In this document: piece by piece, positions 1 to 9,108 of the stretch
Layout: each line of letters opens with the position of its first letter
How positions within the stretch are numbered: position 1 is the first letter of the stretch
Virus record (IMG/VR): IMGVR_UViG_2667527657_000003
Origin: a virus
Lineage: Duplodnaviria; Heunggongvirae; Uroviricota; Caudoviricetes
Length of the DNA stretch: 9,108 nucleotides
Direction: 5' to 3' (one strand)
Program-made: the position numbers and the translations under genes
Notes under the pieces: generated by a model
What the model saw: only the letters and a program-made list of their open reading frames with translations
What the model was told of the DNA's origin: nothing
Database searches by the model: none

Positions 1-72
1 GGTAGTTCAGTCGGTTAGAATACCTGCCTGTCACGCAGGGGGTCGCGGGTTCGAGTCCCGTCCGTTCCGCCA
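1..72 (+). tRNA. tRNA-Asp (anticodon GUC), 3' 72 nt; the first ~5 nt lie before the window
   Basis: Sequence matches enterobacterial tRNA-Asp from position 6 to the 3' CCA as I recall it. Anticodon stem cctgc (23-27) pairs with gcagg (35-39), giving a 7-nt loop ctgtcac with GTC at 30-32. T-arm ggttcgagtcc and terminal CCA at 70-72 are present. Confidence 0.9.
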
Positions 73-521
73 ATATTCAGAAAGCCCGAATCAGTAATGA
101 TTCGGGCTTTCGTCGTTTTGGTGAAGTGAGAATTTTTCACTCCGAAGTAAAACGGATATGATTTAAAAGCCATCTCATTATCACGTTGATAGTTAAAACC
201 GAGTGGGATCATGGTGTCGATGAGTCCGGAAAGCACCGGAATATCCTTCATGGCCGGAAATATGGTGTTCTCCATCCACGTATCCAGCTCAGAATCCGGC
301 GCCTGTGCACGGACGAAAACGGCAATATGCAGAACAGCCTGCCAGTCGTCCTCATCCGTCATTTTTCCGGTGTACTGCGCATCACTCAGCCACACCGCCA
401 CGGCGGGCAGTTCCTGCGCATCAATAAATGCCGGAAGCCCGTCAAAAAACGTGGCGCTGTCTCCACACTGTTCCCGAAGGCGTGCCAGCACGCTCTGACG
501 GATTTGTGTGTGTCGGTTCAT
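15..521 (-). CDS. U: Tail terminator protein (lambda gpU homolog); C-terminal part of the ORF is probably not native
   Basis: Residues 1 to about 115 of the 168-aa ORF align by eye with lambda gpU (MNRHTQIRQSVLARL..ATFFDG..PAVAV..DSELDTWME..). Lambda gpU is about 131 aa, but this ORF has no stop until 15-17 and reads through the terminator hairpin and into the tRNA. Start ATG (519-521) overlaps the Z stop TGA as ATGA. Confidence 0.6.
   Translation of the reverse strand: MNRHTQIRQSVLARLREQCGDSATFFDGLPAFIDAQELPAVAVWLSDAQYTGKMTDEDDWQAVLHIAVFVRAQAPDSELDTWMENTIFPAMKDIPVLSGLIDTMIPLGFNYQRDNEMAFKSYPFYFGVKNSHFTKTTKARIITDSGFLNIGGTDGTRTRDPLRDRQVF
81..115. terminator. Intrinsic terminator of the tRNA; perfect palindrome, potentially bidirectional
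   Basis: aaagcccgaatc (81-92) and gattcgggcttt (99-110) are exact reverse complements: a 12-bp stem with 6-nt loop agtaat, followed by T-rich cgtcgtttt on the + strand. The A3/T3 arms also give a U-tract when read on the - strand. Confidence 0.7.
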
Positions 522-1105
522 TTACTCAGATGTAACCTCAGTTGTTGTTTCAGGGCATACCCCAGCTGTTTCGGCATTTCCGCAGCAATGATGCGGTCGC
601 GGGCATCTTCAAATGCCTGTGTCAGCGGTCCGGACATCGGGATTTTCACCACATCAATGGGGTAACGATTTTTGCCGTCAATACGCCGCATCACATGCCA
701 GCGACCATTCGCCAGTTGCTGAATAAACGCATCCCGGAAAAGGTATTTCCCCACTTTCAGTACGCTGCCACGATGACGTGAGTTGCTGCCATGCCGGGAG
801 CGGGCCAGTCTGACCTGTGCGGTACCCAGCTTAATGGCGGGCAGGTTACCCCGGTTAACACGCATGCGGGCATACATTTTTCCTGAGGGGCTGGCTTTAA
901 GCAGCCTGACACGCTCCCTGACCGTTTTCAGGGGAATACCTTTCACCTGGTTATCCCCGGCAACGGTATTCTGCGCAACCTGCCGTGTGGCGACAGAAAC
1001 AATCTTTGCCGCCACACGGTTTACCGCCCATGCGCTGGTCTGTGGCACCATGCGGGTATCGAGGCTGTTCAGATTGCGGATGGCATTCTCAAGTCCCTTC
1101 ATCAT
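518..1105 (-). CDS. Z: Tail completion/assembly protein (lambda gpZ homolog)
   Basis: The 195-aa ORF aligns along its length with lambda gpZ (MMKGLENA.., FIQQLANGRWHVMRRIDGKNRYPIDVVKIPM.., LGYALKQQLR). Position after FII matches lambda gene order. Confidence 0.85.
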   Translation of the reverse strand: MMKGLENAIRNLNSLDTRMVPQTSAWAVNRVAAKIVSVATRQVAQNTVAGDNQVKGIPLKTVRERVRLLKASPSGKMYARMRVNRGNLPAIKLGTAQVRLARSRHGSNSRHRGSVLKVGKYLFRDAFIQQLANGRWHVMRRIDGKNRYPIDVVKIPMSGPLTQAFEDARDRIIAAEMPKQLGYALKQQLRLHLSK

Positions 1106-6674: not shown

Positions 6675-8585
6675 TCACTCCTCCGGACAGCTTCGCTGCC
6701 AGTTCTTCAAGGGTCGGTTGTGCAGTTGCATCCTTGCGGGATGCAACTGCACAGCCAGATCAAGTTGCCAGCGTTGCACGGACACACGTAATGCCGCATA
6801 GGCATACACCAGGCAGTCCAGCGCTTCGTTACGCCGCTTTTTGTTATCCCACAACAGACGCATCTTTCCTTTTTCCCACTTTTCCACCAGTTCCTCCGCC
6901 ACCAGTTGTTGTGCCTCTGTCTGCGAAAAAATCTCCGGATTATCAGGAAAGCGGATGGCATACGATGTGGCCTCATTCACAGGGGTGGGATCGGCCTTCA
7001 TTCGGGCATAGAGAATTTCTTTTGCGGTATCCGTCCCCACCTCACACAGATACACACCCCGCTGATTGCGGGTTTTCGGCATGGTGATCACCGGCTTGCC
7101 ATAGACAGAGGCACCTTTTACCGGCAGTACCCGGAAAATACCGTGTTTTTTTGACCTCTGATACACGATTTCGCCATCGATCCCCCCGATATCCCAGCAG
7201 ACACGGGAAATGGTCATTTCGGTACCGTCTGCATGGCGGTATTTTTTATTGATCGCCGCATCCACACGTAACAGCGTCTCTTCCTCATCAGGACGTCCCA
7301 TGATGATGATTTTATCCACCAGAAAGGCTTCCTCTCCCGGAGCCCACCCCCAGACATACATCTCAAAACGGTTTCGCTGCGAGTCAATGCCCGCCGTCAG
7401 ATAAACCACCCGGACAGGCACCGTTGCCGTGTAAGGCACAACCTTATCCATCAGTACCTGGTGATCGAGTTTTTCGCCCACGGCCTCTTCCCAGGTCTCG
7501 CCCAGCGTGGTGTTCACAAAAGTTTTCACGCCGTTGGGATCTTTCAGTGCATCCAGCCAGTCACAGACTATCTGTACCCTGGTGGTGAACGGACTGTACG
7601 CCGTCCATATATGGAAAGTGATGGAGCGCGGCGGCGGAATTTCATTACCCGAAGCACTGAAAAACGTCAGACCGTCACACGTCCACATCCCGGTATTGTC
7701 ACAAATCCAGCGCCCCCCGGTCTGATCAAGTTCAGACTGACGGATCACGCAGCCATTATGTTCACACAGGTAATACACCGTTTCCGGTTTACCCTTCTCC
7801 CATTTCAGGCCAAACGACGTCGCATCATCGCCAAACTTCAGATACTGCTCCTCCCCGCAATGAGGGCAAGGGACATAAAACCGCATGAAATGCGCAGATT
7901 CATTCGCAGCTTTTTCAATCTGACAGGAGCCTTTAATTTTTGGCGTTGAACCGCGTATGGATTTTGGCCATACCGAACCTTCAATACGTTTATCGCCAAG
8001 CAGTGTTGGCGAACCTTCTTTTTCCACATCCGGTTCAAACGAGGAGAGTTCGTCATAGCAGACCACATCGACAGATTTTTCACGGTAGTTTTTGGCAGCA
8101 GCACCACCCAAACACCAGAACCCCACACCAGAGGAAAAACGCTTCAGTGTGAGCGTATTATCCCGGTGTTTCCGGCCCAGCCAGGGAGAAAGTTTTTTCA
8201 GGCAAGGAACATCACGAATTGTTGCTTCCACGTGAGACTTCATAAAATCTTCAGCAGCTGAGTCCGTCGGCTGAAAAAGAAGAGTGTTGCGGGATTTGTG
8301 CTCAATAAAATACCCGATCACACCAAGCACCATTTTTGTATAACCAACACGGGCAGATTTAATCAGGTTAACTGTACGAATCTCGTCATTGCCCATGCAG
8401 TTCATGATGGCGACCTGAAACTGCAGCGTTTTCCATTCCCCCTCACCGTATGACGATTCTTTAGGCAGGTAATAATTTTGATCGGCCCATTCTACAGCCG
8501 TCACCGGCAATACCCTGACCAGTGGCTGCAGTGCGATAGTGACTGCCACCATCATATTACTCAGTTGTTGTTCTGATATATTCAT
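6675..8585 (-). CDS. A: Terminase large subunit (lambda gpA homolog)
   Basis: Collinear with lambda gpA from MNISEQQ (ATG at 8583-8585) through the C-terminus: TAVEWAD.NYYLPKES, KSARVGY, FWCLGG.AAKNYREKSVDV, GDKRIEGSVWPKSIRGSTPK, CPHCGEEQYLKFGD, FHIWTAYSPFTT, FVNTTLGETWE, YLTAGIDSQ, WDNKKRRNEALDC. The 19 codons upstream in the ORF track overlap the end of Nu1 and are not the native start. Confidence 0.95.
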   Translation of the reverse strand: MNISEQQLSNMMVAVTIALQPLVRVLPVTAVEWADQNYYLPKESSYGEGEWKTLQFQVAIMNCMGNDEIRTVNLIKSARVGYTKMVLGVIGYFIEHKSRNTLLFQPTDSAAEDFMKSHVEATIRDVPCLKKLSPWLGRKHRDNTLTLKRFSSGVGFWCLGGAAAKNYREKSVDVVCYDELSSFEPDVEKEGSPTLLGDKRIEGSVWPKSIRGSTPKIKGSCQIEKAANESAHFMRFYVPCPHCGEEQYLKFGDDATSFGLKWEKGKPETVYYLCEHNGCVIRQSELDQTGGRWICDNTGMWTCDGLTFFSASGNEIPPPRSITFHIWTAYSPFTTRVQIVCDWLDALKDPNGVKTFVNTTLGETWEEAVGEKLDHQVLMDKVVPYTATVPVRVVYLTAGIDSQRNRFEMYVWGWAPGEEAFLVDKIIIMGRPDEEETLLRVDAAINKKYRHADGTEMTISRVCWDIGGIDGEIVYQRSKKHGIFRVLPVKGASVYGKPVITMPKTRNQRGVYLCEVGTDTAKEILYARMKADPTPVNEATSYAIRFPDNPEIFSQTEAQQLVAEELVEKWEKGKMRLLWDNKKRRNEALDCLVYAYAALRVSVQRWQLDLAVQLHPARMQLHNRPLKNWQRSCPEE

Positions 8586-8869
8586 CGAGTAAATCCGGTA
8601 ATTTATCCCCCGCACGCGCGCACTGATTCGCTCCCTTAGCAATAAGGATTTTCAGATGATCAATATGACGCGGCGTTAAATCCGGGAACTGTCGTTGCAT
8701 GGACAAAGGAATGGAGTCAAGCGTACTGGATAAAGCCATCGCCAGCTTACTAAGGGCAAAAATACAAAATCCGGTATCGATAAGATTTCCTTTTGACACC
8801 TGATTTTTTAACTGCTGTGCGACAGCCTGTTCTGCGGTCAGTTCCCATCTGGCAATGAGTAGTTTGAGG
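8557..8869 (-). pseudogene. Nu1: Terminase small subunit (lambda Nu1 homolog), 5'-truncated by the IS insertion
   Basis: The 107-aa ORF aligns only with the C-terminal ~100 residues of lambda Nu1 (ELTAEQAVAQQLKN, FCIFALSKLA, LDSIPLSMQRQFPDL, RHIDHLK, LLDEYI). The N-terminal ~75 residues are absent. The ORF's first few codons, including the ATG at 8878-8880, fall inside the IS terminal sequence. The Nu1 stop overlaps the A start by about 29 nt, as in lambda. Confidence 0.75.
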
Positions 8870-9108
8870 TGTACTGGCAATAGCGGACACTACCATTTGT
8901 TCTTTTTTTAAGCAGCCATCTGATGATATTTTTCCCTGAAGGCTGCAGGGGAGATATTCCCCAGACGAGAGTGACGACGCTGACGATTGTAGAAAATCTC
9001 AATGTATTCCCGTATTACTGAGATGGCTTCATCCCGGTTATTAAAACGATAGTGGCTCAGGCTCTCATTTTTCAGCGTTCCCCAGAAGCTTTCCATCGGA
9101 GCATTGTC
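8870..9108 (-). mobile_element. End of an IS3-family insertion sequence (continues past the right edge of the window)
   Basis: Contains the transposase C-terminus (see 8908..9108). Phage homology stops at about 8869. The + strand tgtactggcaatagcggacac starting at 8870 has the 5'-TG..CA-3' terminus expected of IS3-family ends. Boundary uncertain by a few bp. Confidence 0.65.
8908..9108 (-). CDS. IS3-family transposase (OrfB, DDE integrase domain), C-terminal 66 codons only
   Basis: Translation DNAPMESFWGTLKNE...YIEIFYNRQRRHS..G.ISPAAFRE carries the IS3-family C-terminal signature (DNA.ES.F..LK.E ... YN..R.HS.L ... SP..F). The reading frame is open to the window edge. Confidence 0.8.
   Translation of the reverse strand, partial: DNAPMESFWGTLKNESLSHYRFNNRDEAISVIREYIEIFYNRQRRHSRLGNISPAAFREKYHQMAA

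What the first reader, a model, noticed from the sequence alone, without database searches (positions are those of the whole stretch)
1..9108. Intact head genes flanked by three independent inactivating lesions
A, W, C/Nu3, D, E, FI, FII and Z all have full-length open frames collinear with their lambda counterparts, but the block is bounded or interrupted by an IS insertion in Nu1, a single-base frameshift in the portal gene, and the loss of the U 3' end and all tail genes. That pattern suggests either a recently inactivated prophage in which mutations have had little time to accumulate, or selective maintenance of part of the module. It also identifies the locus as a reservoir of functional head genes for recombination with incoming lambdoid phages.
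Basis: inference. Interest (0 to 1): 0.4.

Follow-up and report, generated by a model that had tools for sequence, protein, structure and literature searches.

The report
Decaying phage-21-like prophage in Shigella
The window is a whole draft contig from a Shigella flexneri-type genome that carries the head genes of a dead lambda/phage-21-like prophage, which is decaying neutrally through at least four separate lesions; this is an ordinary, already annotated cryptic prophage.

Summary
The window is the complete 9108-bp contig LAHV01000040.1. Its minus strand carries a phage-21-type head module: Nu1'-A-W-B-C/Nu3-D-E-FI-FII-Z-U'. Positions 169-9108 are 99.6-100% identical to a prophage present in complete S. 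flexneri chromosomes.

All three reported lesions exist, but each needs correcting.
- **IS600 at Nu1 codon 68.** In complete genomes it has no target duplication and replaces about 2 kb, including cos and the Nu1 DNA-binding end.
- **Portal frameshift.** It is a T5-to-T6 slip, present in all 10 S. flexneri loci checked.
- **U truncation.** U is cut at nucleotide 353 and joined to aspV-downstream DNA. Near-identical complete genomes keep a full U and all tail genes, so loss of the tail genes is unproven.

Gene A carries a net -1 change that turns a quasi-palindrome into a perfect 15-bp inverted repeat. It replaces the last 30 residues of gpA, the prohead-binding end.

Point changes that arose after inactivation run 10 nonsynonymous to 3 synonymous (dN/dS about 1), including W336R at a Trp invariant in 119 homologues. 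This fits neutral decay in a young lineage, not selective maintenance. The finding is already known and of low interest.

The parts
1..72 (+). 3' part of a tRNA-Asp gene (aspV type), cut by the contig end
   Evidence: Rfam tRNA hit at 1-69, model positions 6-71, cut at the 5' end. It is 99.4% identical to the tRNA-Asp after dnaQ in E. coli and 100% identical to the S. flexneri 8401 aspV locus. ARAGORN finds nothing because the gene is truncated.
73..168 (+). Native aspV-downstream spacer, including the aspV terminator hairpin at 81-110
   Evidence: It matches native aspV loci that continue into an ImpA/T6SS remnant.
168..169 (.). Junction between aspV-downstream DNA and gene U, with no microhomology
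   Evidence: Three-way comparison of the window, an intact U (L009) and a native aspV locus (L003). Two independent assemblies have contigs that end exactly at 169. The junction 32-mer is absent from two public collections.
169..521 (-). Gene U (tail terminator), nt 1-353 of 402. The last 14 residues are lost and the frame reads on to position 15. It holds a roughly 200-bp imported gene-conversion patch at 212-405.
   Evidence: tblastn matches residues 1-118 of 133. The fusion ORF is seen on this contig only. The patch is derived relative to L010, L011 and both outgroups.
518..1102 (-). Gene Z, open, 194 aa
   Evidence: 98% identical to the FDAARGOS_943 Z protein. Pfam Minor_tail_Z.
1089..1466 (-). 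Gene FII, open, 125 aa, GTG start
   Evidence: The same 125-aa allele is on at least 1000 contigs, including E. coli chromosomes.
1478..1864 (-). Gene FI, open, 128 aa
   Evidence: 100% identical to the FI protein of the intact FDAARGOS_943 prophage.
1916..2944 (-). Gene E (major capsid protein), open, 342 aa, with lineage-specific D103G
   Evidence: Position 103 is S/T/D in the wider family and G in 2 of 77 sequences, so the change is not demonstrably damaging.
3002..3349 (-). Gene D (decoration protein), open, 115 aa, with derived S28C
3386..4891 (-). Gene C (S49 protease-scaffold, 501 aa as in phage 21) with nested Nu3 (3386-3988). Open, with derived P129S.
   Evidence: 93.8% identical to phage 21 C. 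Nu3 start and ribosome-binding site are conserved. The catalytic-serine motif CSAA is retained.
4881..6474 (-). Gene B (portal) pseudogene. A +1 slip in a homopolymer (plus-strand A6 at 5481-5486, T6 on the gene strand) splits it into 351-aa and 207-aa frames. Derived G445S.
   Evidence: T6 in all 10 S. flexneri loci and T5 in both intact E. coli relatives. Removing one T restores a 530-aa frame.
6471..6674 (-). Gene W, open, 67 aa
   Evidence: 100% identical to W of both intact relatives.
6675..8585 (-). Gene A (large terminase), 636 aa against the native 642. Residues 1-612 are in frame and the last 24 are frameshifted junk. Derived P55Q, R303C, W336R and V483I.
   Evidence: Walker A, the YDEL motif and the nuclease GIDSQ motif are retained. 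W336 is invariant in 119 of 119 homologues.
6719..6753 (.). Perfect 15-bp inverted repeat with a 5-nt loop, created by the A lesion. Ancestral gene-strand TGGCGG became AGTTG, which is plus-strand CAACT at 6744-6748.
   Evidence: Predicted hairpin energy goes from -21.8 to -32.0 kcal/mol. The ancestral state is retained in L010, L011 and both outgroups.
8560..8865 (-). Nu1 (small terminase) 3' fragment, residues 68-169 of 169. The N-terminal DNA-binding part is missing.
   Evidence: 100% identical to residues 68-169 of FDAARGOS_943 Nu1.
8866..9108 (.). IS600 (IS3 family) terminal 243 bp, cut by the contig end
   Evidence: 99.2% identical to annotated IS600 copies. rve_3/rve_2 Pfam hits on the partial ORF. 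The full 1.26-kb element is present at this spot in complete chromosomes.

Best explanation
**What it is.** The window is the head-morphogenesis and packaging module of a phage-21-like lambdoid prophage that became defective in the S. flexneri lineage. It has been decaying neutrally since then.

**Order of events, inferred from which loci share which lesion:**
1. An IS600-associated deletion removed cos, the Nu1 DNA-binding end and the DNA back to Rz. A T5-to-T6 replication slip also broke the portal gene. Both are shared by every S. flexneri copy examined, so both are old.
2. Later, in one sublineage, an intramolecular template switch 'corrected' a quasi-palindrome near the 3' end of A. It replaced 6 bases with the 5-base complement of the opposite arm. 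This frameshifts the last 30 codons, which form the prohead-docking end of the large terminase.
3. The same sublineage accumulated eight nonsynonymous point changes and imported a roughly 200-bp gene-conversion patch into U.
4. Most recently, U was broken at nucleotide 353 and joined to DNA downstream of aspV.

**Why the other genes look intact.** The remaining head genes are open only because too little time has passed for random mutation to hit them. Nothing suggests they are being kept by selection.

**Shown and inferred.**
- Shown: the lesions, their distribution among loci, and the substitution pattern.
- Inferred: the mutational mechanisms, the functional consequences, and the timing.
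For: **Identity and source**
- The window is contig LAHV01000040.1 of assembly GCA_001017345.1.
- Positions 169-9108 are 99.6-100% identical to complete S. flexneri chromosomes.
- The exact protein sequences are annotated in S. flexneri 301, 2457T, 8401 and 2002017.

**Family**
- Gene order, Pfam content and 88-97% protein identity to phage 21 for A, W, B, C, D and E.

**IS600 lesion**
- The flanks are Rz and Nu1 codon 68, with no target duplication (GGG against AAC).
- 1950 bp of the FDAARGOS_943 prophage is missing.

**Portal lesion**
- T6 in 10 of 10 S. flexneri loci and T5 in the intact relatives.

**A lesion**
- TGGCGG became AGTTG in 8 of 10 S. flexneri loci.
- The new bases are the exact complement of the opposite arm, giving perfect 15-bp arms.

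**Neutral decay**
- 13 polarised post-inactivation SNPs are 10 nonsynonymous to 3 synonymous, and 9 to 0 in the open genes.
- dN/dS is about 1.06, against 0.13-0.19 for the older divergence.
- W336R sits at a Trp invariant in 119 of 119 homologues, and P55Q is unique among them.

**Timescale**
- 8 substitutions in 8.7 kb at 6.5-9.5e-7 per site per year is about 1000 years, consistent with divergence between phylogroups (PMC4522646).
Against: - The SNP sample is small (13). Recent polymorphism is always enriched for nonsynonymous changes, so weak purifying selection cannot be excluded.
- All canonical catalytic motifs in gpA and gpC are retained.
- Several genes (W, FI) are identical to alleles in apparently intact prophages, so individual genes may still be functional.
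- gpE D103G is not at an invariant position.
- No functional or expression data were available.
- The mechanism behind the U-aspV junction is unresolved.
Confidence: 0.88

Rival explanations
1. Part of the head module is selectively maintained (domesticated), for example to supply capsid parts to another element or for a host function.
For: Eight consecutive genes keep open frames, start codons and ribosome-binding sites. Catalytic motifs are intact. Purifying selection on defective prophages has been reported in general (my own knowledge: Bobay, Touchon and Rocha 2014).
Against: Changes after inactivation are 10 nonsynonymous to 3 synonymous, and 9 to 0 in the open genes. There is a radical change at an invariant Trp in gpA. 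Portal, large terminase, small terminase and cos are all broken, so no packaging-competent head can be made from this locus alone. Other lineages carry breaks in Z and V.
Confidence: 0.05
2. The U-aspV junction is a true deletion that removed the U 3' end and every tail gene from this strain.
For: The contig reads directly from U nt 353 into aspV-downstream DNA. Two other assemblies break at the same nucleotide.
Against: In reference-type chromosomes aspV lies near 0.23 Mb and the prophage near 0.71 Mb. The two are oriented so that a single inversion, not a deletion, gives the observed join (inference). A simple deletion would remove about 0.5 Mb of core genome unless earlier rearrangements had occurred. 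The window ends 168 bp past the junction, so tail genes elsewhere in the assembly cannot be excluded. Sister chromosomes identical over 169-9108 have all tail genes.
Confidence: 0.3
3. The U-aspV junction reflects an inversion, a translocation, or the insertion of a segment carrying a second copy of the aspV end. In that case the tail genes survive elsewhere in the genome.
For: The orientation (aspV on the plus strand followed by the reverse-complemented prophage) is what one inversion between aspV+96 and U nt 353 would produce. SKESA-type contigs stop exactly at 169 rather than running on to the tRNA. That would be expected if the following 168 bp is present twice, or if two continuations exist (inference).
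Against: There is no IS and no microhomology at the junction, whereas S. flexneri rearrangements are usually IS-mediated (PMC1550401). No reciprocal junction was found. The junction 32-mer is absent from the collections that could be scanned.
Confidence: 0.45
4. The U-aspV join is an assembly misjoin at a repeat boundary, and the strain really has the standard full prophage.
For: The exact fusion ORF is recorded on this one contig only. Other assemblers stop at this nucleotide instead of crossing it. The source is a short-contig draft assembly.
Against: A random chimera would be unlikely to land on the very nucleotide where two independent assemblies also break. The two joined ends do not overlap, so an assembler had nothing to merge them on.
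Confidence: 0.2
5. The portal T6 run is a leaky or programmed frameshift site, so the portal is still made.
For: U-rich runs allow low-level ribosomal or transcriptional slippage (general knowledge).
Against: Intact relatives, phage 21 and lambda all encode the portal in one frame with T5. Six T is short for efficient slippage. The downstream part of B is accumulating changes like a pseudogene.
Confidence: 0.03

Closest known systems
Escherichia phage 21 (OL657228) and lambda (NC_001416) head and packaging module
   Same: Identical gene order Nu1-A-W-B-C/Nu3-D-E-FI-FII-Z-U. Protein identity to phage 21 is 88-97% for A, W, B, C, D and E. C is 501 aa with nested Nu3, as in phage 21.
   Different: cos and Nu1 codons 1-67 are missing. 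B and A are frameshifted and U is truncated. FI, FII, Z and U are only 47-58% identical to phage 21 (a mosaic module).
Intact prophages in E. coli FDAARGOS_943 (NZ_CP065615) and CFSAN029787 (NZ_CP011416)
   Same: 98.6% and 94.7% DNA identity across the module. W is identical to both and FI is identical to the FDAARGOS_943 allele.
   Different: They have a complete Nu1, a 642-aa A, a 530-aa portal, a full U and all tail genes. FDAARGOS_943 has its own ISEc60 between FII and Z.
The same cryptic prophage in complete S. flexneri chromosomes, for example CP034931, CP106857, CP007037 (G1663) and strains 301, 2457T and 8401
   Same: 99.6-100% identical over window 169-9108, with the same IS600 position and the same portal frameshift. 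Most also share the same A lesion.
   Different: They carry a full U and V-J tail genes instead of the aspV junction. CP097828 and LR213452 retain the ancestral 642-aa A.
Cryptic lambdoid prophages of E. coli K-12 (Rac, DLP12, Qin, e14) and defective prophages as recombination donors (PMC3945230)
   Same: Defective lambdoid remnants disabled by IS elements, deletions and point lesions. They are known to exchange DNA with related phages.
   Different: The K-12 remnants have lost most structural genes, whereas this one still has an almost complete head block. This comparison rests on my own knowledge and was not tested here.
Quasi-palindrome-associated template-switch mutations (PMC7202029)
   Same: An imperfect inverted repeat becomes perfect through a multi-base change that is the complement of the opposite arm, here with a net -1 frameshift.
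   Different: This is a natural fixed example in a prophage pseudogene, not a reporter assay. The mechanism is inferred from the sequence only.

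Membership tests
Lambdoid (phage 21 / lambda type) head-assembly and DNA-packaging module | Collinear gene order Nu1-A-W-B-C/Nu3-D-E-FI-FII-Z-U on one strand | tested here: met
   ORF map and tblastn against lambda, phage 21 and two prophages.
Lambdoid (phage 21 / lambda type) head-assembly and DNA-packaging module | Characteristic protein families: GpA_ATPase/nuclease, gpW, Phage_portal_2, Peptidase_S49, HDPD, Phage_cap_E, Packaging_FI, Phage_attach, Minor_tail_Z, Phage_tail_U | tested here: met
   Precomputed Pfam hits on the called genes of this contig.
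Lambdoid (phage 21 / lambda type) head-assembly and DNA-packaging module | Scaffold gene Nu3 nested in frame in the 3' part of C | tested here: met
   Phage 21 Nu3 aligns over residues 1-200 at 93.5% identity. The ATG and GGAGG are conserved at 3988.
Lambdoid (phage 21 / lambda type) head-assembly and DNA-packaging module | cos site upstream of Nu1 | tested here: not met
   The window ends in IS600 at Nu1 codon 68. In complete S. flexneri chromosomes the other IS600 flank is Rz, so the cos region is absent.
Functional (inducible, particle-forming) prophage | Complete small terminase, large terminase and portal genes | tested here: not met
   Nu1 lacks residues 1-67, A is frameshifted after residue 612, and B is split at the T6 run.
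Functional (inducible, particle-forming) prophage | Complete tail genes contiguous with the head genes | tested here: not met
   U ends at nt 353 and is followed by aspV-downstream DNA in this contig. Whether tail genes exist elsewhere in the genome could not be tested.
IS600 (IS3 family) simple insertion | Terminal sequence of IS600 | tested here: met
   243 bp at 99.2% identity to annotated IS600 copies.
IS600 (IS3 family) simple insertion | 3-bp target-site duplication and contiguous target DNA on both sides | tested here: not met
   In complete chromosomes the flanks are GGG and AAC, and about 1.95 kb of prophage DNA is missing between them. The other flank is not contained in the window itself.
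Quasi-palindrome template-switch mutation | The ancestral imperfect inverted repeat becomes perfect, and the new bases equal the complement of the opposite arm | tested here: met
   Gene strand ancestral: TGTGC-TGGCGG-CATCC...GGATG-CAACT-GCACA. Derived: TGTGC-AGTTG-CATCC. The result is 15-bp perfect arms, with predicted energy going from -21.8 to -32.0 kcal/mol. Polarity comes from two outgroups and two S. flexneri loci.
Genes under purifying selection (domesticated prophage genes) | dN/dS clearly below 1 for changes that arose after inactivation | tested here: not met
   10 nonsynonymous to 3 synonymous, ratio about 1.06. P = 0.001 against the historic regime. The sample is small.

The most novel reading that the evidence does not exclude
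The recurrent break at exactly U nucleotide 353, seen in three independent assemblies, could mark a previously undescribed event. It is joined in this contig, with no IS and no microhomology, to a copy of the aspV 3' end plus 96 bp. One possibility is a mobile segment or island that carries an aspV end and has inserted into the prophage. Another is an IS-excision-type deletion anchored at a former IS site. A second, separate reading is that the open head genes are still expressed and used by another element in S. flexneri.
Probability: 0.06. Interest if true: 0.4.

Novelty: already known. Interest (0 to 1): 0.12.

Why it matters
It matters little beyond bookkeeping. The locus is a standard example of how Shigella prophages die, with IS-associated deletion, homopolymer slippage, quasi-palindrome template switching and rearrangement all visible within 9 kb. 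The nested distribution of these lesions gives usable lineage markers for S. flexneri. It also shows that an open reading frame is not evidence of function or of selection in a lineage only centuries old. Individual head genes (W, FI, D, E, C) could still rescue or recombine with incoming phage-21-like phages, but that is a known general property of defective prophages.

Tried and rejected
- **tRNA detection.** ARAGORN found no tRNA because the gene is cut by the contig end. Rfam recovered it.
- **Source publication.** A literature search for the WGS accession LAHV00000000 gave only an unrelated paper.
- **Other copies of the U-aspV junction.**
  - The exact fusion ORF is on one contig only.
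  - A homologue search with the fusion protein returned only ordinary or otherwise truncated U proteins.
  - The junction 32-mer is absent from genome contigs and metagenome contigs.
- **Reciprocal junction.** The ImpA neighbour of aspV was checked in S. flexneri chromosomes. Only the native dnaQ-aspV-ImpA arrangement was seen.
- **L012.** Most of this locus is masked with N, so it was used only for the lesion sites.
- **Hidden inactivating changes.**
  - Among the large-terminase and protease motifs checked (Walker A, YDEL, GIDSQ, CSAA), no catalytic residue is lost.
  - I first took gpA R303C and V483I, and gpE D103G, to be damaging because four references agree at those positions. Wider alignments show these positions vary, so I withdrew that claim. 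Only W336R and P55Q remain as candidates.
- **Repeat-boundary explanation for the contig ends at 169.** I considered that a tail module shared with another prophage might start there. The last differing base is 39 bp away, which fits poorly, and the question is left open.

Full report
**Source of the window.** A look-up of the ORF that spans the left-hand junction shows that the window is, base for base, the whole of contig LAHV01000040.1 from draft assembly GCA_001017345.1, reverse-complemented.
- Both window ends are therefore assembly breaks in repeats.
- Positions 1-69 are the 3' part of a tRNA gene (Rfam). This is the tRNA-Asp that follows dnaQ, namely aspV.
- Positions 8866-9108 are the end of IS600, at 99.2% identity.
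- No E. coli complete genome holds the window at more than 98.3% identity.
- The exact protein sequences are annotated in S. flexneri 301, 2457T, 8401 and 2002017, and occur on at least 1000 contigs.
- Eight complete S. flexneri chromosomes match window 169-9108 at 99.6-100%.

**What the block is.** The minus strand carries Nu1'-A-W-B-C/Nu3-D-E-FI-FII-Z-U'.
- It is collinear with lambda but closer to phage 21. A, W, B, C, D and E are 88-97% identical at the protein level, and C is 501 aa as in phage 21.
- The closest intact relatives are prophages in E. coli FDAARGOS_943 (98.6% DNA identity) and CFSAN029787 (94.7%).
- FI, FII, Z and U belong to a different mosaic allele set from phage 21.

**Lesion 1: IS600 at Nu1.**
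- IS600 begins at 8866, directly after Nu1 codon 68. Residues 68-169 are 100% identical to the intact relative.
- The window cannot show the other side of the element. In complete S. flexneri chromosomes the other IS600 flank lies inside Rz.
- The two flanks (GGG and AAC) are not a target duplication.
- The 1950 bp that lie between these points in the FDAARGOS_943 prophage are gone. They comprise the Rz 3' end, a rha-type gene, a small ORF, the cos region and the first 201 nt of Nu1.
- So this is an IS-associated deletion that removes the packaging site and the N-terminal part of the small terminase. In lambda that part is the winged-helix DNA-binding domain (PMC4856287).

**Lesion 2: the portal gene.**
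- The plus-strand run at 5481-5486 is A6, against A5 in both intact relatives.
- Removing one base restores a 530-aa portal that differs from the relatives by one or two residues.
- All ten S. flexneri loci examined have the six-base run, and the exact 351-aa fragment is on at least 1000 contigs.
- It is a real, fixed slippage mutation, not a sequencing error.

- tblastn with intact gpA matches residues 1-612 in one frame. Residues 615-642 match at 100% identity in a different frame.
- The cause is a change from gene-strand TGGCGG to AGTTG, a net loss of one base. On the plus strand this is CAACT at 6744-6748.
- The five new bases are the exact complement of the opposite arm of a pre-existing imperfect inverted repeat.
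- The result is a perfect 15-bp palindrome with a 5-nt loop, TGTGCAGTTGCATCC-CGCAA-GGATGCAACTGCACA on the gene strand. Predicted hairpin energy goes from -21.8 to -32.0 kcal/mol.
- This is the signature of a quasi-palindrome template-switch mutation (PMC7202029). The mechanism is inferred from sequence only.
- The product is 636 aa with 24 junk residues in place of the native 30.
[quoted passage not shown] This terminase should therefore not dock on a portal, which is an inference.
- The lesion is present in 8 of 10 S. flexneri loci. L010 and L011 keep the ancestral 642-aa gene. It is therefore younger than lesions 1 and 2.

**Lesion 4: gene U.**
- Homology to U stops at 168/169, after 353 of 402 nt. 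The reading frame runs on through the aspV terminator into the tRNA.
- There is no microhomology and no IS at the join.
- The fusion ORF is recorded on this contig only, and the junction 32-mer was not found elsewhere.
- Against a random chimera: two independent assemblies, GCA_017209935.1 and GCA_020690625.1, have contigs that end at exactly position 169.
- Against 'all tail genes lost':
  - Chromosomes identical to the window over 169-9108 have a full 133-aa U followed by V, G, T, H, M, L, K, I and J.
  - The window stops 168 bp after the join.
  - aspV lies near 0.23 Mb and the prophage near 0.71 Mb. Their relative orientation is what a single inversion would give, which is my inference.
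- I could not decide between deletion, inversion or translocation, insertion of a segment bearing a second aspV end, and a misjoin at a repeat boundary.

**Are the 'intact' genes intact?**
- W, C/Nu3, D, E, FI, FII and Z have full-length frames with conserved start codons and ribosome-binding sites.
- The Walker A, YDEL and GIDSQ motifs of gpA and the CSAA serine motif of gpC are retained.
- W is identical to both intact relatives, and FI is identical to the FDAARGOS_943 allele.
- Lineage-specific replacements exist. Using the two E. coli prophages as outgroups, the window's sublineage has derived changes as follows:
  - gpA: P55Q, R303C, W336R and V483I
  - gpB: G445S
  - gpC: P129S
  - gpD: S28C
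  - gpE: D103G
- In an alignment of 119 homologues, W336 is invariant and Q55 is unique. C303 and I483 are common alleles.
- gpE position 103 is S/T/D in the wide family, with G in 2 of 77 sequences, so that change cannot be called damaging.

**Selection or time?**
- Divergence from phage 21 and the E. coli prophages shows the expected historic purifying selection, with a pN/pS ratio of 0.13-0.19.
- The informative changes are those that arose within S. flexneri, after the shared IS600 and portal lesions. These are 13 scattered SNPs, 10 nonsynonymous and 3 synonymous.
- All three synonymous changes are in the portal pseudogene. In the still-open genes the count is 9 to 0.
- That gives dN/dS of about 1.06. 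It fits the neutral expectation of 76% nonsynonymous, and has probability 0.001 under the historic regime.
[quoted passage not shown] This predicts about one substitution per 140 years in 8.7 kb. The eight changes on the window's branch and the absence of nonsense mutations are what neutral drift predicts.
'Selective maintenance' is not, with the caveat that the sample is small.

**Recombination.**
- The window's sublineage carries a derived patch of 20 differences at 212-405 in U. One chromosome, L007, carries a similar patch in B.
- These are gene-conversion tracts from other lambdoid sequences, so the locus does recombine.
- That defective prophages donate DNA to incoming phages is already established (PMC3945230). 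Cryptic prophages in S. flexneri are well described (PMC5596473), as are IS-driven rearrangements (PMC1550401).

**Verdict.** This is an ordinary, already annotated cryptic prophage.
It overstates the intactness of A and the loss of the tail genes, and understates the IS600 lesion.
- The quasi-palindrome lesion and the nested order of lesions are tidy details, not new biology.

Noticed in passing
window 6719-6753: The frameshift in gene A creates a perfect 15-bp inverted repeat from an imperfect one. It is a natural, fixed example of a quasi-palindrome template-switch mutation, polymorphic among S. flexneri lineages (present in 8 of 10 loci).
   Followed up: yes
window 212-405 (gene U); L007 at window-equivalent 5626-5770 (gene B): There are clustered differences within otherwise identical S. 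flexneri copies: 20 in about 200 bp in U, and 22 in about 145 bp in B. Outgroups show they are imported gene-conversion patches from other lambdoid sequences. The donors were not identified.
   Followed up: partly
window 1 and 9108 (contig ends): The window is an entire draft contig. Its ends fall in a multi-copy tRNA-Asp gene and in IS600, so they are repeat-induced assembly breaks and not biological boundaries.
   Followed up: yes
window 169; L015 and L027 contig ends: Two other S. flexneri assemblies have contigs of 8692 and 8934 bp that stop at exactly the nucleotide where this contig switches to aspV DNA. Contig lengths of 8692-8694 bp recur in the cluster listings. What follows the break in those genomes is unknown.
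   Followed up: partly
L016, L026 and L028 (ends at window 1064); cluster 9: Logan contigs of this locus all stop at window 1064, in the FII/Z overlap. Partial Z proteins of 149 and 155 aa occur on 264 and 64 contigs. This suggests a repeat shared with another prophage, or a lineage-specific IS insertion in Z.
   Followed up: no
L010 and L011, about 12823-13119 in L009 coordinates: The tape-measure gene H is 912 aa in two chromosomes and 1013 aa in the others. This is an in-frame deletion of about 300 bp in the lineage that keeps the ancestral A gene.
   Followed up: no
L025 (GCA_018989485.1), contig end: In the lineage with the ancestral 642-aa A, the head contig runs through a full U and stops inside V at about nt 603. 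This points to yet another lineage-specific break or repeat boundary.
   Followed up: no
L019-L024 and L017 (aspV locus): The native neighbour of aspV in S. flexneri is a decayed type VI secretion cluster with a split TssG and an adjacent IS. Its ImpA protein is recorded on only tens of S. flexneri contigs, against at least 1000 for the prophage proteins. Most S. flexneri therefore probably lack this neighbour.
   Followed up: partly
L001 7062-8252 (E. coli FDAARGOS_943): The closest 'intact' relative is itself interrupted by an ISEc60 element between FII and Z, and an IS66 element lies just beyond its tail gene M. It may not be a fully functional prophage either.
   Followed up: no
window 6675-6677 and 6674: The frameshifted A now stops at a TGA immediately before the W start codon. 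The native arrangement is a 17-nt overlap between A and W, so any translational coupling between them is altered.
   Followed up: no
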